From the human T2T-CHM13v2.0 reference genome, Homo sapiens: a stretch of 64,000 bases of DNA. Location: the NCBI RefSeq assembly GCF_009914755.1, contig NC_060929.1; one strand, given 5' to 3'. This document shows positions 1-63,470 of the stretch, piece by piece. A program made the position numbers and the translations under genes. The notes under the pieces were generated by a model that was not told the DNA's origin, ran no database searches, and worked only from the letters and a program-made list of their open reading frames with translations. Position 1 is the stretch's first letter, and every line of letters begins with the position of its first letter.

Positions 1-300
1 TCCTGTTTCACTAGTTTGCAGCTGTTATTTGGTGCAGACACATTTACAATTGCTGTGTCTTTTTGGTGGACTGACCCTATATTATTACATAATATCTCTC
101 CTTGACTCTGGTACTTTTCTTTGCTCTGAAGTATGCTTTATGTGATATCAATATAGCCACTCCTACTTTCTTTTGGTTAATTATTACATCATATATCTTT
201 TTTCATTCTTTTATTTTCAACTTGCCTATTATTATACTTGAAGTGAGTTTCTTGTAGAAAGCATATACGCAGTTCATATTTTCTAATCCATTCTGCCAGT
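1..300 (-). mobile_element. Old L1M fragment, interrupted by the L1PA insertion
   Basis: Degenerate L1 endonuclease-region antisense sequence (gatatcaatatagccactcctactttc); resumes after 6650. Confidence 0.7.
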
Positions 301-557
301 CAAAATACAATGTTGTAGATATTTATGTTTTGTTATTTTGTTTGTTTGTTTTTACTATACTTTACGTTCTGGGATACATGTGCAGAATGTGCAGGTTTGT
401 TACATAGGTATACACATGCCATGGTGGTTTGCTGCACCCATCAACCCATCATCTACATTAGGTATTTCTCCTAATGCTATCCCTCCCCCAGCCCCCCACC
501 CCCAGACAGACCCCAGTGTGTGATGTTCCCCTCCCTGTGTCCATGTGTTCTCATTGT

Positions 558-3500
558 TCGACTCCCACTTATGAGTGAGAACATGCAGTGTTTGGTTTTC
601 TGTTCCTGTGTTAGTTTGCTGAGAATGATAGTTTCCAGCTTCATCCATGTCCCTGCAAAGGACATGAACTCATCCTTTTTAATGGCTGCATAGTATTACA
701 TGGTGTATAGGTGCCATATTTTCTTTATCCAGTCTATCATTGATGGGCATTTGAATCAGCTCCAAGTCTTTGCTATCATGAATAGTGCTGCAATAAACAT
801 ACGTGAGCATGTGTCTTTACAGTAGAATGATTTATATCCTTTGGGTATATGCCCAGTAATGGGATTGCTAGGTCAAATGGTATTTCTGGTTCTACATCCT
901 TGAGGAATTGCCACACTGTCTTCCACAATGGTTGAACTAATTTACACTCCCACCAACAGCGTAAAAGTGTTCCTTTTTCTCCACATCCTCTCCAGCATCT
1001 GTTGTTTCCTAACTTTTTAATAATCACCATTCTAACTGGCATGAGATGCTATCTCACTGTGGTTTTGATTTGCATTTCTCTAATGATCAGTGATGATGAG
1101 CTTTTTTTCATATGCTTGTTAGCTGCATAAATGTCTTCTTTTGAGAAGTGTCTGTTCATATACTTTGCCCACTTTTTGATGGGGTTGTTTGATTTTTTTC
1201 TTGTAAATTTGTTTAAGTTCTTTGTAGATTCTGGATATTACCCTTTGTCAGATGGATTGCAAAAATTTTTTCCCATTCTGTAGGCTGCCTGTTCACTCTG
1301 ATGATAGTTTCTTTTGCTGTGCAGAAGCTCGTTAGTTTAATTAGATCCCATCTGGCAATTTTGGCTTTTGTTGCCATGGCTTTTGGTGTTTTAGTCATGA
1401 AGTCTTCTCCCATACCTATGTCCTAAATAGTATTGCCTAGGTTTTCTTCCAGAGTTTTTACGGTTTTTGGTCTTACATTTAAGTCTTTAATCCATCTTCA
1501 GTTAATTTTTGTATAAGGTGTAAGGAAGGGGTCCAGTTTCAGTTTTCTACATATGGCTAGCCAGTTTTCCCAACACCATTTATGAAATAGGGAATCCTTT
1601 CCCCATTGCTTGTTTTTGTCAGGTTTGTCAAAGATCAGATGGTTGTAGATATGTGGCATTATTTCTGAGGCCTCTGTTCTGTTCCATTGGCCTATATATC
1701 TATTTTGGTACCAGTACCATGCAGTTTTGGTTACTGTGGCCTTGTAGTATAGTTTGAAGTCAGGTAGCATGATGCCTCTAGCTTTGCTCTTTTTGCTTGG
1801 GATTGTCTTGGCTATACAGGCTCCTTTTTGGTTCCATATGAAATTTAAAGTAGTTTTTTCTAATTCTGTGAATAAAGTCAACGGTAGCTTGATGGGGACA
1901 GCATTGAATCTATAAATCACTTTGGGCAGTACGGCCATTTCTACAATATTGATTCTTCCCATCCATGAGCCTGAAACACTCCATTTGTGTCCTCTCCTAT
2001 CTCCATTGAGCAGTGGCCTGCAGCTCTCCTCGAAAAGGTCCTTCACATCCCCTGTAAATTGTATTCCTAGATATTCTATTCTCCTTGTAGCAATTGTGAA
2101 TGGGCGTTCACTCACGAATTGGCTCACTGTTTGTCTATTATTGGTGTATAGGAATGCCTGCAATTCTTGCACATTGATTTTGTATCCCGAGACTTTGCCG
2201 AAATTGCTCACCAGCCTAAGGAGATCTCGGGTTGAGACAATGGGGTTTTCCAAATACACAATCATGTCATCTGCAAACAGAGACAATTTGACTTCCTCTC
2301 TTCCTGTCTGAACACCCCCCATTTCTTTCTCCTACCTGATTGCCCTGGGCAGAACTTCCAATACTATGTTGAGTAGGAGTGGTGAGAGAGAGCACCCCTG
2401 TCTTGTGCTGGTTTTCAAAGCCCCTGACCATTCAGCATGACATTGGCTGTGGGTTTGTCATAAACAGCACCCTTTATTTTGAGATACATATGATCAATAC
2501 CTAGTTTATTGAGAGTTTCCTGCATGAAGGGGTGCCAAACTCCATCAAAGGCCCTCTCCGCATCCACTAAGACGATCATGTGGCCTTTGTCACTGGCTCT
2601 GCCCATGTGATGGACCACGTTCATCGATCTGCTTATGTTGAACCAGCCTTGCACCCCAGGGATGAAGCTGACCCAATCATGGTGGATAAGCTTCTTGATG
2701 TGCTGCTGAACTCGGCCCACCAGCATTTTACTGAAGATTTTCAAATCAATGTTCACCAGAGACACTGGCCCAAAATTTCCTTTTTCTGTTGTGTCTCTGC
2801 TAGGTCTTGGCACCAGGACGATTCTAGCCTCATAAAATGAGCTAGGGAGGAGTCCCTCTTTTTCCATTGTTCGGAACAGTTTCAGAAGGAATGGTACCAG
2901 CTCCTCTCTGCATCCCTGGTAGAATTTGGCTGTGAATCTGTCTGGTCCTGGGCTTTCCTTGGTTGGCAGGCTATTAATTACGACCTCAATTTCAGAACTT
3001 GTCATTGGTCTATTCAGGGATTCAACCTCCTCCCAGTTTAGTCCTCGGAGGGTGCATGCATCCAGGAATGTATCCACCTCTTCCAGACTTTCCAGTTTAT
3101 TTGCACAGAGGTGTTTATAGTATTCTCTGACGGTAGTTCGTATCTCTGTGAGATCAATGGTGACATCCCCTCCATCATTCTCTATTGTGTCCATTTGATT
3201 CTTCTCTCCTGTGTTCCCTATTAATCCAGCTAGCGGTCCATCTATTTTGTTAGTCTTTTCAAAAAACCAGCTCCTGGATTCACTGACTTTTTGAAGGGTT
3301 TTTCGTGTTTTTATCTCCCTCACTTCCGCTCTGATCCTAGTTATTTCTTGTCTTCAGCTAGCTTTTGAATCTGCCTGCCCCCGCTTCTCTAACTTTTTTA
3401 ATTGTGATGTTAGAGTGTTGATTTTAGACCTTTCCCACTTTCTTCTGTGGGCATTTGGTGCTATAAATTTCCCTCTAAACACTGCTTCAGCTGCATTCCA

Positions 3501-4217
3501 GAGATTCTGGTACATTGTGTCTTTGTTCTCATTGGTCTCCAAGAACTTATTTCTGCCTTAATTTCATTATTTATCCAGTAGTCATTCAGGAGCAGGTTGT
3601 TCAGTTTCCGTGTAGTTGTGTGATTTTGAGTGAGTTTCTTAATCCTGAGTTCTAATATGATTGCACTGTGGTCTGAGAGACTGTTTGTCATGATTTCTGT
3701 TCTTTTGCATTTGCTGAGGAGTGTTTTACTTCCAATTACGTGGTCGATTTTAGAATAAGTGTGATGTGGTGCTGAGAAGAATGTATATTCTGTTGATTTG
3801 GGGTGAAGAGTTCTGTAGATGTCTATTAGCTCTGCTTGGTCCACAGCTGAGTTCAAGTCCTGAATATCCTTGTTAATTTTCTGTCTTGTTGATCTGTGTA
3901 ACATTGACAGTGGGATGTTAAAGTCTCCCACTATTATTGTGTGGGAGTCTAAGCCTCTTTGGAGGTCTCTAAGAATTTGCTTTATGAATCTGGGTGCTCC
4001 TGTATTGGGTGCATATATATTTAGGATAGTTAGCTCTTCTTGTTGCATTGATCCCCAGACTATGTGTGTCTTTGCACGTGAGATGGGTCTCCTCAATACA
4101 GCACACCAATGGGTCTTGACTCTTTATCCAATTTGCCAGTCTGCGTCTTTTAATTGGGGCAGTTAGCCCGTTTACATTTAAGGTTAATATTGTTATGTGT
4201 GAATTTGATCCTGTCAT
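558..4217 (-). pseudogene. L1 ORF2p remnant (endonuclease, reverse transcriptase, Cys-rich domain), disrupted and A-to-G hypermutated
   Basis: MTGSNSHITILTLNVNGL start; VGDFN and SDH endonuclease motifs; [11 protein letters not shown] motif; [18 protein letters not shown]; several stops, frameshifts and deletions. Confidence 0.95.
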
Positions 4218-4280
4218 TATGATGCTAGCTGTTTATTTTGCCTGTTAGTTGATGCAGTTTCTTCATAGTGTTGATAGTCT

Positions 4281-5313
4281 TTACAATTTGGTATGTTTTT
4301 GCAGTGGCTGGTACCAGTTGTTCCTTTCCATATTTAGTGCTTCTTTCAGGAGTTCTTGTAAGGTAGGCCTGGTGGTGACAAAATCTCTCAGCATTTGCTT
4401 GTCTGTAAAGGATTTTATTTCTCCTTTGCTTATGAAGCTTAGTTTGGCTGGATATGAAATTCTGGGTTGAAAATTCTTTTCTTTAAGAATGTTGAATATT
4501 AGTCTCCAGTCTCTTCTGGCTTGTAGGGTTTCTGCAGAGAGGTCCACTGTTAGTCTGATGGGCTTCCCTTTGGGGGTAACCTGACCTTTCTCTCTGGCTG
4601 CCCTTAACATTTTTACCTTCATTTCAACCTTAGTGAATCCGACAATTAAGTGTCTTGGGGTTGCTCTTCTTGAGGAGTATCTTCATGGTGTTCTCTGTTC
4701 TCTGTATTTCCTGAATTTGAATGTTGGCCTGTCTTGCTAGGCTGGGGAAGTTCTCCTGGATAATATCCTGAAGAGTGTTTTCCAGCTTGGTTCCATTCTC
4801 CCTGTCACTTCCAGGTACACCAATCAAATGTAGGTTTGGTCTTTTCACATAGTCCCACATTTCTTGGAGGCTTTGTTCATTACTTTTCATTTTTTTTTCT
4901 CTAATCTTGTCTTCACACTTTATTTCATTAAGTTGATCTTCAATCTTTGATAGCCTTTCTTCTGCTTGATTGATTCGGCTATTGATACTTGTGTACGCTT
5001 CACGAAGTTCTCATGCTGTGTTTTTCAGCTCCATCAGGTAATTTACGTTCTTCTCTAAACTGGTTATTCTAGTTAGCAATTCGTCTAACCTTTTTTCAAG
5101 GTTCTTAGCTTCCTTGCATTGGATTAGAACATGCTCCTTTAGCTCAGAGGAGTTTGTTATTACCCACCCTCTGAAGCCTACTTCTGTTCAATTTGTCAAA
5201 TTCATTCTGTGTCCAGTTTTGTTCCCTTGCTGGCAAGGAGGTGTGATCCTTTGGAAGAGAAGAAGCATTCTGATTTTTGGAATTTTCAGGCTTTTGCGCT
5301 GGTTTTTCCTCAC
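4281..5313 (-). pseudogene. L1 ORF1p remnant (frameshifted; start codon reads GTG)
   Basis: ORF-track peptides ...NEQSLQEMWDYVKRPNL... and ...KMLRAAREKGQVT...NFQPRISYPAKLSF...YQPLQKHTKL; start region reads AAAG-GTG-AGGAAAAAC. Confidence 0.92.
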
Positions 5314-6009
5314 CTTTGTGGATTTATCTACCTTTGGTCTTTGATGTTGGTGACCTTCGGATGGGGTTTTTGTGTGGACCTCCTTTTTCTTGATGTTGAT
5401 GCTATTTCTTTCTGTTTGTTACAGTCAGGCCCCTCTGCTGCAGGTTTGCTGGAGTTTGCTGGAAGTCCACTCCAGATTCTGTGTGCCTGGGTATCTCCAG
5501 CAGAGACTGCAGAACAGCAAAGATTGCTGCCTTTTCCTTCCTCTGGAAGCTTCATCCCAGAGGGGCACCTGCCATATGCCAGCCAGAGCTCTCCTGCATG
5601 AGGTGTCTGTTGACCCCTGCTGGGAGATGTCCCCCAGTCAAGAGGCAGGAGGGTCAGGAACCCACTTGAGGAGGCAGTCTGTCCCGTAGCAGAGCTCAAG
5701 CACTGTGCTGAAAGATCCACTCCTCTCTTCAGAGCCGGCAGGCAGGAAGGTTTAAGTCTGCTAAAGCTGCACCCACAGCCGCCCCTTCCCCCAGGTGCTC
5801 TGTCCCAGGGAGATGGGAGTTTTATCTATAAGCCCCTGACTGGGGCTACTGCCTTTCTTTCATAGATGCCCTGCCCAGAGAGGAGGAATCTAGAGAGACA
5901 GTCTGGCTACAGCGGCTTTGCCAAGCTTTGGTAGGCTCCACTGAGTTCGAACCTCCCCGGAGGCTTTGTTTACACTGTGAGGGGAAAACCGTGTACTCAA
6001 GCCTCAGTA

Positions 6010-6150
6010 ATGGCAGATACTCCTCCCCCCAGCAAGCTTGAGCATCCCAGGTCAACTTCAGACTGCTGTGCTGGCAGCAAAGTTTCAAGCCAGTGGGTAT
6101 TAGCTTTCTGGGTTCTGTGGGGGTGGGATCCACTGAGCTGGACCACTTGA
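6010..6150 (+). pseudogene. L1 ORF0-like antisense ORF (46 aa, MADTPPPSKLEHPRSTSDCCAGS...)
   Basis: Hand translation; position in the L1 5'UTR and N-terminus resemble L1 ORF0 (MAGAPPP...SDCCAS). Confidence 0.65.
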
Positions 6151-6912
6151 CTCCCTGGCTTCAGCCCCCTTTCCAGGGGAGTGCACGCTTCTGTCTTGCT
6201 GGCGTTCCAGGCGCCACTGAGGTATGAAAAAAAACTCCTGCAGCTAGCTCTGTGTCTGCCCAAATGGCTGCCCAGTTTTATGCATGAAACCCAGGGCCCT
6301 GGTGGAGTAGAGACCCAAGGGAATCTCCTGGTCTGCAGGTTGCAAAGACTGTGGGAAAAGCATAGTATCTGGGCCAGAATGCACCATTCCTCATGGCACA
6401 GTCCCTCACGGCTTCCCTTGACTAGGGGAGGGAGTTCCCCGACCCGCTGTGCTTCCCGGGTGAGGTAACACCCCACCCTGCTTCGACTCGCCCTCCGTGG
6501 GCTGAACCCACTATCTAACCAGTCCCAATGAGATGAGCCAAGTACCTCAGGTGGAAATGCAGAAATCACTCACCCTTCTGCATTGATCTCACTGGGAGCT
6601 GCAGACTGGAGCTGTTCCTATTCAGCCATCTTGCCACCCACCTCCAACAATCCTTTATTCCATTTATGTTGAATGTAATTACAGATATGTTAGAGCTTAA
6701 GTCAGTTATTTTGTATTTTGTTTTCTGTCTATTCTCTCTGTTGTTCATTTCTCTGTTTTCTTTTCCTTATCTTCTTGTGGGTTACTTCCGGTGGGTTACT
6801 TTTTAGAATTCCATATTAATTTTTGTTTTTGAGTGTATCTATTTCTTTTTCACTAGTTGCTTTAGGTATTAAAAGTATACATATTTTTATAACTTAAATT
6901 TTTTCATATATT

Positions 6913-7202
6913 TGCTATGGTTTAAATGTGTCCCTTCCAAAATTCAGGCGTTGCCAATGTGACGGTATTAGGTAGTAAAGTCTTTAAGAGGTAATTAAGT
7001 CATGAAAGTTCTTCCTCATTAATGTTATTAAGGCCCTTATGAAAGAGGCTTCATGCAACAAGATGGTCCTCAGCAGATACCAGATGCCAATGCCTTGATC
7101 TAGGACTTCCCAGTTTCCAGAACTGTGAGAAAATAAATTTCAGTTTATTCTAAATTACTCAGTCTCAGGTACTGTGATATAACAGCATAAGCAGACTAAG
7201 TC
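6913..7202 (+). mobile_element. MaLR solo LTR (MST-like)
   Basis: Starts tgctatggtttaaatgtgtccc; contains gacttcccagtttccagaactgtgagaaaataaattt; ends gcagactaag. Confidence 0.8.
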
Positions 7203-7844
7203 AATATCGATATCAAACCTATCCTAGTGTACTTGTGGTGTAATTTTGCCAGTTCAAGTGAAGTGTAGAAACCTTATTTCCCTTTATAGCTCCTTACCTT
7301 TTTCCTTTTATAATATGATTGCTCAAGTATTCTCTCTACCAAATCAGATGTTAAAATTTCTGCTTTAACCTTCAAATATAATTTAGAAAACTCAAGAGGA
7401 GAAGGGAAGCCTATTATATTTACTCATATTTTTACTTAGTGTTTTCTTGGTTCTTAATGTTCCAATATTCTTTCTTTCATAATTTCCTTTCTGTAGCCAT
7501 GCTTTTAGAAAAAAAACTGCTAGTGACAAAATCTCTTAGTTTCCCTTCATCTGAGAATGTCATGATTTCCCCTCCATTCCTAAAGGATATTTTTGCTGGA
7601 TATTGGATTTGGGTTGACAATTTTTTCCTCTCAACACTTGAAAGATGTTGTGTCACTTCCTTATGGAGTCCATGGTTTCTGATGTAAGATCCACTGTCAT
7701 TCAAATTGCTTTTCCCTTACAAGTAAGGTGTCATTTCTTGCTCTCTGCTTTTAACAATTTTTTCTATGTTCTTAGTTTTCAAAAGTTGAATGATATATCC
7801 TGGCATGACTCTCTTTGAGTTTATCCTATTAGGTTTCATTTGTC

Positions 7845-9140
7845 TTTTTTTTAGTAACAGCTTTATTGAGATATAATTTTTAACCATAAAACTCACCCTT
7901 TTAAAGTTTATAATTCAGTGGTTTTTAGATTCACAACATTATGTAACCTCCACTATCTAACTTTAGAACACTTTAATCACCTAGAAAAGAAACCCTATAC
8001 TTATTAGTAATCACTATTTCCCTCCTTGACCCTTGGAAACCACTAATATGCTTTGTCTCTATATATCTGCTTATTTTAGACTTTCACATAATCATGTAAC
8101 ATGTGGCTTTTGTAACTGGCTTCTTTCACTTAAAGAAAGCATAATGCTTTCAAGGTTGATTCATACTGTAGCATGTATTAGCACTTTATTCCTTTTTAGT
8201 ATCAATTAATAGTCCATTGTATATATATACTATATTTTGTTTATTCATTAATCAATTGATGGACATTTGAGTTGTTCCACTTTTTGGACATTACAAATAA
8301 TTACAAATAATCCTGCTTTTTGTACCACTTTTTGTGTAGACATATGTTTTCATTTTTATTTGGAGTAGAATTCCTGAGTCATAGGGTAACTCTATATTTA
8401 ATTGTTTGAGGAACTGCCACAGTGTTTTCCAGAGCAGCTATAGCATTTTACATTCCCACCAGCAATGTACAGGGGTTCCAATTCCTCCATATCCTCCCCA
8501 ATACTTGTTATCTGTACTTCATATTATAGATACTCTAATGAGTGTGAAGTGGTATCTCCTTGTTTTGATTTGCATTTCCCTAATAGCTAATGATCTTGAG
8601 CTTCTTCTCATAAGCCTATTGGTCATTTGTATATCTTATTTGAAGAAATGTCTATACAGATCCTTTCTCCATTTTTAATTAGGTTGTTTTTTATTATTGA
8701 GGTGTAAGAGTTTTTTATCTATACTAAATATAAATCTCTTATTGGATATGTAATTTGCAAATATTTTCTCCCATTCTGTGTGCTGTCTTTTCATTTTCTT
8801 TCTTGGTGGTGCCATTTGAAGCATGAAAGTTTGAAATTTTGATGAAATCCAACCTGTTTACTTTTTCTTTTATTGCTTGCGTTTTTGGTGTCATATGTAG
8901 GAGGTCTTTTCCTAACTCCAGGTCACAAAAATTTAATTCCATGTTTACTTCTGATAATTTTATAGTTTTAGTGCTTATATTTTGTTCTATGATCCATTTT
9001 AAGTTAATTTTTGTATACAGTGTGAAGCAGACGTCCAATTTTGTTCTTTTACATGTGGATACCCTGTTGTTTCAGCACTATTTGTTAAAAAATAACTACC
9101 TTCTTCCCATTTAACTGTTTTGGCTCCTTTGTTGAAAATT
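7845..9140 (-). mobile_element. L1MB-type 3' fragment
   Basis: acagctttattgagatataatt 3' end; ORF 8739-9038 resembles the ORF2 C-terminus (LYTKINLKWI...MTPKTQAIKEKV). Confidence 0.85.
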
Positions 9141-10849
9141 CACTCAGCTTCTTGAATCTGTAGGTTTATCTCTTTCACCAAATTTCAGAAGTTTTCAGAC
9201 ATTATTTATTTGAGTATTTTTAGCCTCACCCTTTTTCTTTTCTCCCTCTAGGACTCTGATTTCATGAATGTTACATCTTTTGTTGTAGTCACTTAGTTCC
9301 ATGAGACTCTGTTCTTTTTAGTCTATTTTATCTCTTTTTTAGAGTGGATAATTTCTGTTGTTCTGTCTTCAAGTTCCTTGATTCATTCCTTTGTCTCCTT
9401 CGTTCTGTTACTCAATTCATTTAGTTTTTTATTTTGATTATTGTATTTCTCAGTTCTAAAATTTCCATTTGGTTTTTCTTTATGTCTTCTGCTTATTTAA
9501 TGAGACTTTCTATTTTTTTCATTTGTTTCAAGTGTTTTTGTAGTTGCTCACTGAAGCATTTTTATGATGTCTGCTTTAACATCTTTGTCAGATAATTCTA
9601 ACATCTTTGTCTTCTTGGTTTTGTCATTTATTAATGGTCTTTTTTCATACAGTTTGAGATCTTCCTAGTTCATGATATAATGAGTGATTTTCATAAAACC
9701 TGGACGTATGGGATATTTATGAGGTTTTGAATCTTATGAAAATCTCTTTTAGCTGGCTTTTTCTAACATGGTACTGGCAGGGGAAGTGGGTATGGGGAAC
9801 AGGCACCACCTCATTGTTGCCAAGTTGGAGGAGACATCCAAGTTCCTCATTTGGCCTCCACTGACACCCAGGATGGGAGACTCCTTGTTACTGGCTTGTG
9901 ATGATGAAAGTACTGGTTCTTTATTTGACCTTCTCTGACACCACCCTGGGAAGGAGGGCTTAGGGCACCTCTAAATAATTATTTAAATATTTTTCCATAA
10001 TGCTAACCTGAAGATGTTTCAGTGTAAGGCAATTCTTTAAACTACCTAATAGTCTGGTGAGGGTGGGGATCTAGGCTATCCACTAGGACTTTGCTGACAT
10101 GAGTAGGATGGGGTCACAATTCTGTCTGTAGTTTTGCCTAGAGTATGCAATTATTGTCAAAAAGTTTTCTGTCTGCCATACTCCTTTTCTGGCCCTTCAG
10201 CTGGAGCAGTGTTTTGATGGGGCCTTTTTAGTCTGTGCCATTGGTGTTTCTAGGTTGCTGATGTGTAAAGTTTCAAGTCTCTAAAGACTCTAAAGCAAAA
10301 AGAAAACACAGGCAATTAACCATCATGTTGTTCCTTGGGTTCCAAGGTCTCTAGTTGATCTGTCTTCTTTCCACCATTTGGAGACCTTTATGTTTGTTTT
10401 ATACATAATGTTCAGAAGTTTTAATTATACTTAGTGGGAGGAATAGGGACAAGCATATCTATTCCAACTTCCCAAAAGTGGAAATCTAAGTAGACCTTTT
10501 TATAAGCAGAATCATATTATAATCACTAGGACATATTAATACTTAAAGGAGATTTGAAGTTAATTTTTCCCAGTTAATAACTCCCTAATTTATATTTTTA
10601 AGAATTCAAACTTTATATATTGGGTTTACTTTAAATGAGAAATGCCTGTAGATTATTTACACATTTCTGAATATTGACTACAATTGTCCTCTTCAATATT
10701 TTAATTAAATTCTTCCAAATAATTACTGAAACTTTTTTTCATAATGTCAACCTGAAGATGTTTCAGTGTAAGGCAATTCTTTAAACTACCTAATGTGAAA
10801 TAATTGTCTTCCAGAAGTATAAATGGTGACAATATTTTAGAAGATCCTA

Positions 10850-11177
10850 TTCTATTTTATTTGTTTATTTTTATTTTTTCATTTATTTTTGAGACGAAGT
10901 CTTCCTCTGTCACCCAGGCTGGAGTGCAAATGAATGGCCTGATCTTGGCTCACCGCAACCTCTGCCTCCCAGGTTCAAGCAATTCTCCTGCCTCAGCCTG
11001 CTGAGTAGCTAGAATTACAGGCGCCCGCCACCATGCCCAGCTAATTTTTGTATTTTTAGTAGAGACGAGGTTTCACCATGTTGGCCAGGCTGGCCTCAAA
11101 CTCCTGACCTCAGGTAATCCGCCCATCTCGGCCTCCCAAAGTGCTGGGATTACAGGCGTGAGCCACTGCGCCCAGGC
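10850..11177 (-). mobile_element. AluS with TSD-like TATTCTATTTT flanks
   Basis: Dimeric Alu in antisense; duplicated flank. Confidence 0.95.
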
Positions 11178-13479
11178 TTATTCTATTTTAGAAGCTTGCC
11201 TGTATATAAAAAATTACTTATCTTACTAGGTTTCCATATACTCACCAACAATTGCCTATTAAAGACATTTATTTAACAATTTTTGAATTTCCAGACTTAC
11301 TTTTTCAATAATATTCCTCCTTCTCAAACATCTTTGATTTATATTAATGTCTAGTAATACTTTCATTCATTGCCCTCTAACAACCTGCCCTGCACTCTGC
11401 TAATGAGTTCTTTATGTAACTTATCTTACTTAATCTTGTTTCAGACAAAAGAAAGTGAAGCTCAGAAAGACTGAGCCAAAAGCATTCATAAATGGTAAAG
11501 CCAGCATCTGCATATAGGTCCTCTGCCTGCAAGCTCCACACTTGTTTTAACAATGCTACACCTGACAAAATAAGCATCTTGTCATTCCTAGGTGAAAGCT
11601 TATAGGTATGTTTTCTCCCTCAGATGCTATTTTGTAACTTCTAACATGTTTTTATTTTTATCTTGGTAAATTTTTCACCTAAGAAAATAAAATTAATACA
11701 GAAATTTTAAATATATCTATGTTTTAAAGGTAAAAACAAAGTTTATAAATTTTAACTTCATTTTTGTCATTTAAAAATTATTAATAATTCTTCAAAGTTT
11801 TACCACATGAGCATATTTAGGTATAAAGAGAAAATACTACTGGATAGCTGCTATTATATGTGCAAACTGTCAAAGAAAAATAAAATAAGCCATGTTAATA
11901 AATCCTTGTTAATAAGATTTACTGTTTAAAACATGTTTTTTTAATTTGACCTAGAAGAGACAAAAAGGCTACATGTGTAAGAATCTCTATTCAACAGAAC
12001 TATTTTATATTAGTATTTTCATTCACTTTAATTTTTACAAAAGAATACATATTTAATTTGCTTAATCTCAATTTTACAACATCTGATAATCAACATTTTT
12101 TTCTTTCAAAATGTTTTGGCCAATAAATCCTCTTATGCTAAATAATATGTTACTTTTTCTTCAATTCATTTCAGCTATTTCCAAACTATTAATCAAGTGA
12201 ACTCCTACTAATTGCTTAGTCAGTAGTATTTACATCTGTCATTATTTGCTAATCTTTTGGATTTTAGAAATATTTGTGTTTTTTCCTTTAGCAAAGTAGA
12301 ATGCAAATACTACACATCTTCTGATTTGTATAGATCCTAGTCCACGATGTAACTTTTCAAATGCAGAAATAAGCCATTTGTTATTTGGATAAATATACTT
12401 TTTCTGGGTATATTTTCCTGCAGATAAACTACCATTCAGAAAAGTTTATATTACATTTTTTTCTTGGTAATCTACTCCTATTTGGGGGGGGGGGCTCTTT
12501 TTGATATACACTACTGTATCCAATTACTATCAAATTAATATTATAACATGTTGAAATCATGAATATTTTAGTTATCTATATTTTCCCTTGCTAAGTTCAA
12601 TTTCCCAATGATTAAAAAATGGTACTTTTAGTCTCAAATTTTAAGTTAAATAAACTAGTTGTTCCTGCAAAATGACTGTAATTCAAATGAAAATTGTTAA
12701 CACGTTTAGAAGAACAAATAAATTACCTTAGTAAAAATTTAGACATTTTCTAGTATTATGTACTGTAATTTTACCTAAACTATGACAGGAAGGCAACAAC
12801 TGTCACACATTTTCAAAATATATACAGCACTTCCAGTAAGATAGTCGGAACTGCTGGTATTTCTACTCACACTGATCATGTGAGGAATATTATCACGGGC
12901 ATCATCACCTTAGAAAATAAAAATCAGCTAGCTATGCAAATTTTAAGTATTTTTATACAGTAAATTTTACATATAAGAATAATCTGAGGGAAGGAAACTG
13001 ATATTTATCTCATTACCCTTGTTGCAGTTGGGTATAAAAACGTCCACCACTCCCATTTTGAATCATTTGCCGTACAGAAAATACAGGACATTTTAATTTC
13101 TCATGATGGCAGGTTAGGGAGAGAAAGGCTTGTTATTTCTAAGAGCAAGAAACTACAGTTTTATAGGATTGAACACCTGGAGGCGTAAACATTTTATAAA
13201 TCACTGAATTCTAATTACATAGTAGTTTATACGCCAGATACAACATACGTCAAAAGCCTATCTTGTTCTAAGCGGGCAGCCATCCACCGGCGTCTACCTA
13301 CCGAAGCCATTTCTGCTTTTTACCAGCGACGCTGGAACAGTGTTATTGTGGGATATGTTCAGTGTTGAACAGGCTCCCAGGGCACGGCTGTTACTTTGGA
13401 GGTTATGCTGGGGTACAGAAGTTAGGCTGGGGCAGGGCCATCCACCTAGGAGGGCCCAGCACAGTCTGGGCAACCACAC

Positions 13480-14450
13480 CGGCGGGCCGTTTTGCTCACA
13501 GCCCCACCGCGCCGGGCAGCGTCTGCAGCTGCTGCGTGCGAGACCCAGAGGCTCCGGTCAGCGCGCCGGCCGCAGGGAGTGCGAGCACTTGTGAGCCCCG
13601 CGCCGGGCCGGTGAAGTCTGGTGCTGCCGAGCCCGCTTAGAAAGCACGGCCGCGCGCTGTCGGACGCAGGCCCACAGGCCCAGCCGACCCAGGCAGCAAT
13701 TTTCCTAGCCCCGCCGCCGTTGCCAAGGCGACCGCCGCCGAACGTTCCCGCGGCGGGCTCCGCCCCCCGGCCAATCGGACCGGCGCTCGGTGAAGCCCAG
13801 ATTCTCTTTGTTCCGCAGCCATTTCAGGCCCCGGACAGGAGGCAGTGCCGCTTCGGCCGAAGGCCCGAGCGCCCGAGGCGTCTGGGATGGTGTGGGACCG
13901 GGTAGGTGGCGTGAGGGTGCGCGGCCCCGAACTGCAGGGGCGGGAACGGAGGCTGGGAGCGCCGAGCTGCCTGACGCGCCTACGGGAGAGACGCCGGGCT
14001 CGCCCGCTCTCTCGGCGCCTGCCCGGCCGTTTGAAGCCGAGAGGCAGCGGCGGCGCGGTTCTAACCCCAACAGCTGCCCGCCCAGGCGCCCTGCGGGACC
14101 CGGGTAGGGAGCAGGCGACGGCGGCTCCTCAAGCGTCCGAGGATCCCGTTAGGGGCGGCAGGAGCCCGTTACAAGGGGCGGGAAGGGAAGGGTCTTACAT
14201 TCAGGGGAGCGTTTGCCTCGCCTGTTAAGCTGTGGCGTTTGAGGGCCCTTGAGTGCTGCAGTCGGCTGCCCCGGGACGGCTGCCTTTCACTGGTTCTGGG
14301 CGCTGGCCGGCGCTGCCCGAGATGGGCCAGTCTTTGTCCCGCCCTGGGCCCCTCTGCCCGGGTCTCCTGCGTCCGCACACAGCGCCCATCGTCCTTACAT
14401 GCAGCTTGCCGTTCTCTTCCTCCCGGCGGTTCTTTCTCCTTGGGGCCTCT
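13480..14450. promoter_or_regulatory. CpG island, upstream TNPO1 promoter
   Basis: High GC and CpG density; GC box CTCCGCCCC ~13758; CCAAT at 13771; pyrimidine-rich TCTCTTT at 13803-13809; GCCATTT (YY1-like) at ~13818; exon 1 inside. Confidence 0.92.
13887..13901 (+). CDS. TNPO1: Transportin-1 coding exon 1 (MVWDR), long isoform
   Basis: GGG-ATG-G Kozak context; ATG GTG TGG GAC CGG followed by donor GTAGGT at 13902; joins in phase 0 to QTKMEYEW at 45538, giving the known N-terminus [18 protein letters not shown]. Confidence 0.93.
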
Positions 14451-32471: not shown

Positions 32472-34717
32472 TGCCTTTGTCTGTTGCTGTTGCAAAATAC
32501 CTTAGACTGGGTAATTTACAAAATAATAAAAATGTATTTCTCATAGTAGTACACAGCCTGGGAAGTCCAGCCAATTTGATGTCTAGTGAAGGCTTGCCCT
32601 CTGCTTCATAAATGGAGCCTTCTTGCTGCATCCCCACATGGACGAAGGGATGTGCCCTCACATGGTGGAAGGGGAGCAGAAAGGCCAAACTGGCTCCCTT
32701 AAGCCATTTGATAAGGGTATTAATCCCATTAATGAGGACAGAACTCTCATGACGTAATCACTTCCTAAAGACTCCACCTGTTAATATTGTTGCATTGAGG
32801 GTTAAGTTTCAAGATGAATTTTGGTAGGACACATTCAAATCATAGCATTCTGCCCCTGGCCCCCCAAAATTTATGTGCTTCTGTCAAAATACATTTATTC
32901 TATCCCAAGAGCCCCAGAAGTCTTAACTCGTTCCAGCATTAATTCAAAAGTCTGAAGCCGAGAATCTCATCTAAATCAGATATGAGTGAGGCCCAAAGTA
33001 TGATTCATCTTGAGGCAAATTGCTCTCCAGCTATGAGCCTGCAAAACCAAGTAAGCCCAAGACCCACGAAGGCAAACAAGATTAAATCTTAAGGCTCCAG
33101 AATAATCTTCTTTGACTTTTATGTATTGCCTTCCAGATACAGTTGGGTAGGGGTTGGGCCCCCAAGTCTCCAGGTCACCCTGTCCCCATGGCTTTGCTGG
33201 GCACAGCCTATGCTGCAGCTCTCATGAGTTAGTCTACTGCCTGTGGTTCTCCCAAGCTGGAATTGCACTCCAGTGGCTCTTTCAGTCTAAGGGGATCCAC
33301 TCCAACAGCTCCATTAGTTATTGCCCTTGTGTAGGCTCTCTGCTGTATCCCCGCTACCACAGCTCCACTAGGCGTGCCCTAGTGGGGCCTCTGCGGTGGC
33401 CCCACCCTGTGATGGTGCTCTGCCTGAGCCCCAGGGTTTTTCAGGGTGTTCTTTCAAATCTAGGTGAGGTAACAGTGCTCCCCACAGCTTATGCATTCTG
33501 TGCACCTGCAGAGTTAGCACCATGTAGACACCACCAAGGTTTACCACCTGTGCTTTCTGGAGGGGTGGTCTGAGCTGCACCTGGGTGTGGCTGTGCCACA
33601 GCTAGGGTAGCCAGGGAATGCTGCACTATAATGTGGGTAGCAGAGCTTTGAAATCATTCTGTTCCCAAGGCACTGACATTCTGGGCTTATAATAGGCAAG
33701 ATAGTCCCAACCATCTCTGAAATGCCTTTTGGTTCATTTGTTCATTGTCTTGATGAATAGCACCTAGCTTCCTTCTGTCCATACTAATCTCCTTATCAAA
33801 CAGTCAGGTTCAGAATTTTTCAAATCTTTAAGTTCTGCCTTCCTTTTAGTTACAAACTCCATCTTTAATTTGTTTCTCTCTTCCTGCATCTTACTATAAG
33901 CAGTCAAGAGAAGCCATGCCACACCTTGAACACTTTGCCAAATATCCTATTTCATCACTCTTAAGTCCTGCCTTCCACACAATGCTAGGACATGAACACA
34001 ATTCAGCAAAGTTCTTTGCCCCTTTGCAACAAGAATGGCCTTTCCTCTAGTTTCCAATAACATATTCCTCGTTTCTGTCTCAGAGACCTCATCAGAATGG
34101 CCTTTACTGTCTGTATTTCTACCAGTACAGAGAGGACCACTTAAGAAATCTCTTAAGAGGATTGAGGCATGTCATGCAGCTCTCCTCTTCTGAGCCCTTA
34201 CCAGAATAGCCCTTTACCATCCAACCTTTACCCATTACCCAATTGCAAAGCCACTTCCACATTTTTAGGTATTTCTTATAGTAGCACCCCACTTCTTGGT
34301 GCCAATTTCTGTCTTAGTCCATTCCTGTGCTATAACAAAATATTTTAGATTGGGTAATTTGTAAGTAGTATAATATATTTCTCACACTTCTGGAAGCTGG
34401 GAAGTTCAAGTTCAAGGCACCAGTGAATTAGGTGTGCTATGAAATCTGGCTTTCTGCTTTGTAAGTGAAACCTTACAGCATCCTCACATGGAGGAAGGAA
34501 CAAACACTATTTTCTCACATGGCTGAAGGGGAGCAGCAGGGCCAAATAGATGCCCTCAAGCCCTTTTATAAGGGCATTAATTCCATTCACGAGGGCAGAG
34601 CCTTCATGACAATGGCAGTCCAAAGTGCCTTCCAAAGTCCCCACCTCTTAATACTATCGCATTTGGAATTAAGTTTCAACATGAATTTTGGAGGGATACA
34701 AACATTCAAACCATAGC
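32472..34717 (-). mobile_element. Two-LTR MaLR provirus (MST/MLT1A-like): LTR ~32472-32847, internal region, LTR ~34310-34717
   Basis: Two similar LTRs both ending acattcaaa.catagca; MaLR-internal sequence between; near-TSD TCACC/TCACT. Confidence 0.85.
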
Positions 34718-63194: not shown

Positions 63195-63470
63195 GTTTTT
63201 TGTTTTTGTTTTTGTTTTTTTAGCTTTGATTTTAGAATCGGGATACATGTGCAGGTTTGTTACAAAGGCGTATTGCGTGGATGCTGGGGGTTTAGAGTAC
63301 AAATGAATCCATCACCTAGGTGGTAACCATAGTACCCATTAGCTAGTTTGGCCCTCTCCCTCCCTCTTCTTATATTCCCCAGTGGCTGTTGTTCCCATCT
63401 TTATGTCGAGGTGTACCATATGTTTAGCTCCCACTTATAAGTGAGAACATGCAGGTATTTGGTTTTCCAT
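63195..63470 (-). mobile_element. 5'-truncated L1PA/L1PB 3'UTR fragment
   Basis: gatacatgtgcaggtttgttaca...tttagctcccacttataagtgagaacatgc. Confidence 0.85.

What the first reader, a model, noticed from the sequence alone, without database searches (positions are those of the whole stretch)
1690..3500. Full-length L1 with dense strand-specific A-to-G hypermutation: probable genomic fossil of an ADAR-hyper-edited retrotransposon RNA
Seen: across ~1.8 kb of ORF2, most differences from the recalled L1PA consensus are A>G on the L1 sense strand (T>C on +), often in runs. At ~2301-2325 sense AATAAAGGGTATTCAAA reads AATGGGGGGTGTTCAGA; at ~2550-2563 ATGCAGAAAAGGCC reads ATGCGGAGAGGGCC. At protein level KAFDKIQ>RAFDGVW, YQRYKEEL>[15 protein letters not shown]>ENDGGDV and FKENYKP>FEESCRP, i.e. 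I>V, I>M, K>E/R/G, N>S/D, Y>C, T>A, Q>R, all A>G-accessible. ORF1 and the 3' end show mostly ordinary decay. In the examples read, the A directly after a G is spared. Established: ADAR deaminates A to I in long dsRNA, disfavours a 5' G neighbour, and RT copies I as G; APOBEC3 leaves G>A instead. Inference: the template RNA was hyper-edited over a dsRNA segment and still integrated full length, so RNA editing was written into the germline. The edited ORF2 may have needed translation before editing or supply in trans.
Basis: partly seen in the sequence, partly recalled or inferred. Interest (0 to 1): 0.9.

Follow-up and report, generated by a model that had tools for sequence, protein, structure and literature searches.

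The report
RNA edits fossilised in human L1
A full-length human L1 jumping gene carries a 1.6-kb stretch in which one A in five reads G on one strand, with the neighbour pattern of the RNA-editing enzyme ADAR, likely because an edited RNA was copied back into germ-line DNA millions of years ago.

Summary
Confirmed. A full-length L1 (minus strand, about 6645-335) has an internal ORF2 tract (best fit 1882-3436) where 140 of 648 conserved As read G. Outside it the count is 39 of 1689; T>C inside is 4 of 302. Other changes are at background, and 47 other L1 copies show 1-3% A>G there and do not share the Gs. Neighbour bias follows ADAR's published order (5' U>A>C>G; 3' G highest). Eight of 20 CpGs created by the changes have since decayed to TG, so the Gs are old germ-line changes, not artefacts. 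Biased gene conversion, subfamily state and a switch to another subfamily are rejected. Best reading: hyper-edited L1 RNA copied into DNA at insertion (0.62). The CpG clock leans younger than the insertion (p 0.01-0.24 by baseline), so later overwriting by an edited cDNA stays open (0.2). ADAR edits in L1-made retrocopies are already reported in cultured cells; nine literature searches found no germ-line-fixed L1 case. Primate orthologues and the dsRNA partner could not be checked.

The parts
335..6645 (-). Full-length, decayed primate L1 (5' UTR, ORF1, ORF2, 3' UTR, A-rich tail); 4.5% from the majority of its relatives outside the tract; probably L1PA7-L1PA8 age (subfamily name inferred, not tested)
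1882..3436 (-). A>G hypermutated tract (edges uncertain, up to 1817-3494), about ORF2 residues 310-835, covering the reverse-transcriptase core; 140 of 648 conserved As read G
   Evidence: residue numbers estimated
2162..3228 (-). Eight CA>TG double changes (3228, 3060, 3035, 2772, 2719, 2675, 2537, 2162): CpGs created by A>G that later decayed, an internal clock
4055..4059 (-). Junction of a deletion of about 155 nt in the endonuclease part of ORF2, outside the tract
6662..6670 (-). Possible upstream copy of a 9-nt target-site duplication; 16 unassigned bases lie between it and the L1 5' end (weak)
321..329 (-). Possible downstream copy of the 9-nt target-site duplication, directly after the A-rich tail (weak)

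Best explanation
This L1 copy has an internal 1.6-kb tract of sense-strand A>G changes with ADAR's neighbour order, which likely records ADAR editing of a double-stranded part of the L1 RNA that was then likely reverse-transcribed into the germ line when the element inserted. Shown: the tract, its strand, its context, its confinement, its uniqueness among the copies examined and its age in the germ line. Inferred: (1) a sense L1 RNA paired over about 1.6 kb with an antisense L1 RNA; the internal ends suggest a partner such as the inverted piece of a 5'-inverted L1 (speculative); (2) ADAR changed about one A in five to inosine; (3) ORF2p made before editing or supplied by another copy read inosine as G during target-primed reverse transcription and finished a full-length insertion, dead on arrival; (4) the new CpGs were methylated and decayed like any other.
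For: A>G 140 of 648 inside, 39 of 1689 outside, T>C 4 of 302 inside. Other changes are unchanged once the secondary CA>TG sites are set aside: 55 of 1516 inside, 164 of 4568 outside, p 0.94. 5' neighbour rates T 37/107, A 70/288, C 26/162, G 10/127 (p 2e-6); 3' G highest, 38/134 (p 0.024 against the rest); no significant effect at positions 2 or 3 on either side. The published ADAR1 order is 5' U>A>C>G and 3' G>C~A>U (PMC3113232); hyper-edited human RNA has G depleted upstream and enriched downstream (PMC4365171). Subfamily-diagnostic columns keep the same state inside and outside the tract. Synonymous 26 of 139 and non-synonymous 90 of 371 changes do not differ, so no selection acted. Precedent: 3 of 235 new L1-made pseudogene insertions in cultured cells carried ADAR-type clusters (PMC11702581).
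Against: The CpG clock leans younger: TG among new CpGs is 8 of 20 (11 of 26 with looser calls), against 30 of 39 (body) or 48 of 69 (whole element) for this copy's own old CpGs (p 0.01-0.02); it does not differ from the pooled relatives (p 0.17-0.24). No antisense partner lies in the window. ADAR1 left no edits in more than 2.5 kb of plasmid-made L1 RNA (PMC5224506). The 3' order below G is T>C~A rather than C~A>U, and the overall 3' test is not significant (p 0.08). A four-class 5' model beats a simple W-versus-S model only by 3-5 AIC units. The target-site duplication is unclear.
Confidence: 0.62

Rival explanations
1. ADAR edited an RNA made from this locus (the L1 lies in sense inside an intron of the lncRNA TNPO1-DT) or from a sister copy long after insertion, and a cDNA of that RNA overwrote 1.6 kb of the resident L1 by gene conversion or RNA-templated repair.
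For: Relative age of the new CpGs 0.41 (0.19-0.79) and 0.43 (0.20-0.82) against this copy's own CpGs. The gene table places the L1 inside TNPO1-DT on the same strand. A bounded internal tract is what a conversion would leave. Context and strand fit ADAR equally well.
Against: Against pooled relatives the age is 0.67 (0.33-1.15), p 0.16, and this copy's own CpG retention (0.15) is the lowest of 19 copies, so partly chance. No inverted ORF2 partner in the 64-kb window, though the TNPO1-DT side beyond base 1 was not read. I know of no germ-line precedent (own knowledge), whereas copying at insertion has one.
Confidence: 0.2
2. An error-prone DNA synthesis event put G opposite T over one tract: polymerase eta-like synthesis, or second-strand synthesis by ORF2p under a skewed dNTP pool.
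For: A after A or T is favoured, as recalled for polymerase eta; the W-versus-S model fits far better than uniform. 3' G enrichment could be a next-nucleotide effect (inference).
Against: No rise in any other substitution inside the tract; T>C stays at 4 of 302; C and G differ as 5' neighbours (p 0.05-0.10) and the four-class model fits best. A 20% error rate held over 1.6 kb is beyond what I recall for these enzymes.
Confidence: 0.08
3. ADAR deaminated the DNA strand itself in a long DNA:RNA hybrid with an antisense L1 RNA.
For: Same context; fits a younger age. ADAR activity on hybrids is recalled, not read here.
Against: Hypoxanthine in DNA is repaired and activity on hybrids is weak (own knowledge); no plus-strand transcript over this L1 is in the gene table.
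Confidence: 0.04
4. GC-biased gene conversion, an unrecognised L1 subfamily with these Gs, or a sequencing or assembly error.
For: The changes raise G+C. Three of the 144 sites are G in about half of the other copies.
Against: Other weak-to-strong changes are 9 of 950 inside and 32 of 2561 outside (p 0.6). No copy shares more than 8 of the 144 Gs; the best other genomic match is 82% (39 other candidates scored of 13,886). C>T beside a new G is 8 of 20 against 3 of 124 beside an unchanged A (p 4e-6), which needs methylation over germ-line time.
Confidence: 0.02

Closest known systems
ADAR-edited processed pseudogene insertions made by L1 in cultured cells (PMC11702581; passage and Fig. S8 caption read)
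   Same: ADAR-type clustered A>G changes copied into DNA by L1 machinery
   Different: There: somatic, new, host mRNAs, limited to inverted Alus or a palindrome, 3 of 235 insertions. Here: old germ-line change, the L1's own ORF2, about 125 excess changes over 1.6 kb, no self-complementary partner in the element
APOBEC-edited retroelements in vertebrate genomes (PMC4866542; passages read)
   Same: A deaminase signature fixed in one germ-line retroelement copy, strand-specific, damaging the reading frame
   Different: G>A from editing of cDNA, screened in LTR elements; that screen kept only G-to-A and filtered out A-to-G. Here A>G with an ADAR context in a non-LTR element
A>G clusters in retroviral proviruses ascribed to ADAR1 (bovine leukaemia virus, PMC8025556; passages read)
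   Same: RNA editing fixed by reverse transcription and integration
   Different: Somatic, about 70 bp in the LTR, seven or more changes; an endogenous mouse case (Mtv61) had A>G excess without the ADAR context (PMC12548423, passage read)
Hyper-edited human RNA (PMC4365171; passages read)
   Same: Dense A>G, G depleted 5' and enriched 3'
   Different: Seen in RNA against unedited DNA; here it is in the reference DNA

Membership tests
ADAR hyper-editing signature | A>G only, on the RNA sense strand, far above T>C | tested here: met
   140 of 648 against 4 of 302, p 1e-20
ADAR hyper-editing signature | 5' neighbour order U>A>C>G | tested here: met
   0.35, 0.24, 0.16, 0.08; order from PMC3113232; adjacent steps are each only p about 0.04-0.06
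ADAR hyper-editing signature | 3' G favoured | tested here: met
   38 of 134, p 0.024 against the rest; four-way test p 0.08
ADAR hyper-editing signature | A long double-stranded partner matching the edited span | tested here: inconclusive
   None in the window; the flank beyond base 1 was not read, and a source-locus or trans partner would not be here
Retroelement edited before integration | Edits as old as the insertion | tested here: inconclusive
   Relative age 0.41-0.67; equal age rejected against own CpGs (p about 0.01), not against pooled copies (p 0.16)
Retroelement edited before integration | Edits shared by all orthologous copies in primates | not testable with these tools
   No primate genomes held (no relatives)
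Retroelement edited before integration | One template: same subfamily inside and outside the tract | tested here: met
   Diagnostic columns keep the state of the 20 full-length relatives throughout, apart from A>G and CpG-type changes and a few private ones
APOBEC-edited retroelement | G>A excess on the sense strand | tested here: not met
   G>A 11 of 246 inside, 31 of 972 outside
GC-biased gene conversion tract | All weak-to-strong changes raised on both strands | tested here: not met
   9 of 950 against 32 of 2561
Primate L1 (L1PA lineage) | ORF2 homologous to human ORF2p; 5' UTR to A-rich tail present | tested here: met
   E about 1e-146 for two frames; colinear with full-length copies
L1PA7 or L1PA8 subfamily | Diagnostic 3' UTR positions against Dfam or Repbase models | not testable with these tools
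   No repeat library on hand; name inferred from divergence and recall

The most novel reading that the evidence does not exclude
This is one member of an overlooked class of germ-line fossils of ADAR editing, missed because screens for edited retroelements kept only G>A. In the boldest form, the edits are younger than the L1: an edited RNA overwrote 1.6 kb of an existing chromosomal locus in the primate germ line, which is RNA editing written back in place.
Probability: 0.2. Interest if true: 0.92.

Novelty: new variant of a known kind. Interest (0 to 1): 0.72.

Why it matters
It is a datable record that A-to-I RNA editing can become inherited DNA sequence: about 125 changes in one step. It shows that L1 RNA, reported as bound but not edited by ADAR1 in cell assays, was likely heavily edited in an ancient germ line, and that a reverse transcriptase likely copied a 1.6-kb inosine-rich template. 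It gives a simple screen (A>G tracts with ADAR context against subfamily models) for how often this happened, and the orthologues would decide between editing before insertion and rewriting in place, a long-debated route from RNA to genome. No function for the host is suggested.

Tried and rejected
Sister copies sharing the edits: none among 47 copies covering the tract or among 39 other scored candidates. One 18-base pattern with up to 2 mismatches had its only exact match here; its 88 hits against 54 for the control were not followed up and say nothing about other edited L1s. Inverted L1 partner in the window: none; the other L1 pieces (8206-9089, 63377-63467) lie in the same orientation. 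Mosaic with another subfamily: rejected. Regional mutator: rejected, as the L1's own flanks are at background and 21 Alus in the window show no such tract (highest 9 of 69 with other changes also raised). The 155-nt deletion as a splice: its ends are not GT-AG in the alignments. Rfam over 1-14000: no match. The 29 copies proved mostly to be of another subfamily and served as a null, not as reference; copies L031 and L042 do not cover the tract and drop out of tract counts. PMC10680173 had nothing relevant.

Full report
What is there. The minus strand from about 6645 to 335 is a full-length, decayed L1. Two stop-free frames match solved human ORF2p at E about 1e-146. By the supplied gene table it lies in an intron of TNPO1-DT, on the same strand. 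For a reference I took 20 of the 39 other copies that best match its 5' UTR and called a position only when at least 70% of at least 8 copies agreed (6084 positions). The 29 copies found with the ORF2 query were mostly of another subfamily and served as a null. Outside the tract the element is 4.5% from the majority, like its relatives. I infer L1PA7-L1PA8; the name is not tested. Ages of about 30 and 40 million years for those subfamilies come from passages of 10.1101/2021.04.06.438727.

The observation. A changepoint fit gives a tract at 1882-3436, with 1817-3494 nearly as likely. Inside, 140 of 648 As read G; outside, 39 of 1689; T>C is 4 of 302 inside and 15 of 872 outside. In 47 other copies covering the tract A>G is 1.0-3.0%, and none shares more than 8 of the 144 Gs. 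The densest run of 300 reference As holds 81 Gs here and 5-27 in the 49 other copies (its printed label says 600, the code used 300). The best other genomic match to the tract is 82%. All other changes are at background once secondary CpG decay is set aside: 55 of 1516 against 164 of 4568.

The signature. In 1817-3494 the rate by 5' neighbour is T 37 of 107, A 70 of 288, C 26 of 162, G 10 of 127 (p 2e-6); by 3' neighbour G 38 of 134, T 33 of 149, C 20 of 107, A 51 of 288 (G against the rest p 0.024; four-way p 0.08). More distant positions show no significant effect. Human ADAR1 prefers 5' U>A>C>G and 3' G>C~A>U, the 5' base mattering most (PMC3113232, passages and section 9), and hyper-edited RNA is G-poor upstream and G-rich downstream (PMC4365171, passages). 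The match is good but not unique: a W-versus-S model, recalled for polymerase eta, is only 3-5 AIC units worse. What excludes a sloppy polymerase is mainly the lack of other errors. Synonymous and non-synonymous sites were hit alike (26 of 139, 90 of 371), as expected for a one-off event with no later selection.

The changes are old. Where a change made CA into CG, the C has since become T in 8 of 20 cases, against 3 of 124 where the A is unchanged (p 4e-6). That needs methylation and decay in the germ line, and argues strongly against a sequencing or assembly error. Biased gene conversion fails, as other weak-to-strong changes are 9 of 950 against 32 of 2561. Subfamily-diagnostic columns keep one state through the tract, so it is no patch from another subfamily.

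When. The same sites date the event. TG among new CpGs is 8 of 20 (11 of 26 with looser calls). This copy's own old CpGs give 30 of 39 in the body and 48 of 69 overall (p 0.01-0.02); the pooled relatives give about 55% (p 0.17-0.24). Relative age is 0.41-0.43 (upper bound about 0.8) on the first baseline and 0.67 (0.33-1.15) on the second. This copy's retention is the lowest of 19, and the spread among the others looks like sampling noise, so I weight the pooled baseline more; the clock is a mild vote for a later event, not a proof.

How it most likely works. A sense L1 RNA paired with an antisense L1 RNA over 1.6 kb of ORF2 (inferred; no partner in the window; the flank beyond base 1 was not read). 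ADAR changed about a fifth of the As. ORF2p, made earlier or supplied in trans, copied inosine as G and completed a full-length insertion (inferred; 0.62). That the tract stops 1.5 kb short of the 3' end fits an internal antisense piece, such as the inverted part of a 5'-inverted L1, better than an ordinary truncated antisense copy (speculation). The main rival (0.2) is later overwriting by a cDNA of an edited transcript, helped by the L1's sense position in TNPO1-DT. Error-prone synthesis (0.08), editing of DNA in a hybrid (0.04) and artefact or conversion bias (0.02) trail. An ADAR origin in some form is about 0.86.

What is known. Three of 235 new L1-made pseudogene insertions in cultured cells carried clustered changes ascribed to ADAR, limited to inverted repeats (PMC11702581, passage and Fig. 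S8 caption), so the route from edited RNA to DNA is shown somatically. ADAR-type clusters occur in bovine leukaemia proviruses (PMC8025556, passages). An endogenous mouse provirus had A>G excess without the ADAR context (PMC12548423, passage). The vertebrate screen for edited LTR elements kept G-to-A and filtered out A-to-G (PMC4866542, passages). ADAR1 restricted L1 without detectable editing of more than 2.5 kb of L1 RNA, the authors allowing for rare editing (PMC5224506, passages). Nine searches (listings and abstract openings seen, six of the listed papers then opened by passage) found no germ-line-fixed ADAR-edited L1. The library lacks most subscription papers, the earlier genome-wide screen by Carmi and colleagues (2011) was seen only as a citation, and supplementary lists of such screens were not read, so a prior mention is possible.

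Verdict. A real, large and clean feature; a new variant of a known kind (deaminase-scarred retroelements, here with ADAR's mark on an L1 in the germ line). Interest 0.72. Primate orthologues would settle the timing.

Noticed in passing
window 335-6645, outside the tract: C>T exceeds G>A on the L1 sense strand (59 of 1013 against 30 of 952, p 0.005), more than in most relatives; possibly a transcription-linked bias from TNPO1-DT, which runs on that strand.
   Followed up: partly
window 1-340: The downstream flank matches L1 sequence at about 65%, so this L1 seems to have inserted into a much older L1 in the same orientation.
   Followed up: partly
window 4055-4059: About 155 nt of the endonuclease region are missing, with a few bases left between two apparent breaks.
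   Followed up: partly
window 1980-2004 and 2420: Four small indels lie inside the tract, three within 25 nt near its 3' end; the overall indel density looks similar to the rest of the element.
   Followed up: no
window 6646-6661: Sixteen bases between the candidate target-site duplication and the L1 5' end are unassigned.
   Followed up: no
window 1972-3543: The stretch left unmasked in NCBI's repeat mask overlaps the tract closely; unmasked gaps inside L1s may be a cheap way to find more such tracts.
   Followed up: no
window 8206-9089 and 63377-63467: Old L1 fragments in the same orientation as the main element.
   Followed up: no
window 32657-32753 and 34514-34610: A 97-nt direct repeat, 79% alike, not an Alu; not identified.
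   Followed up: no
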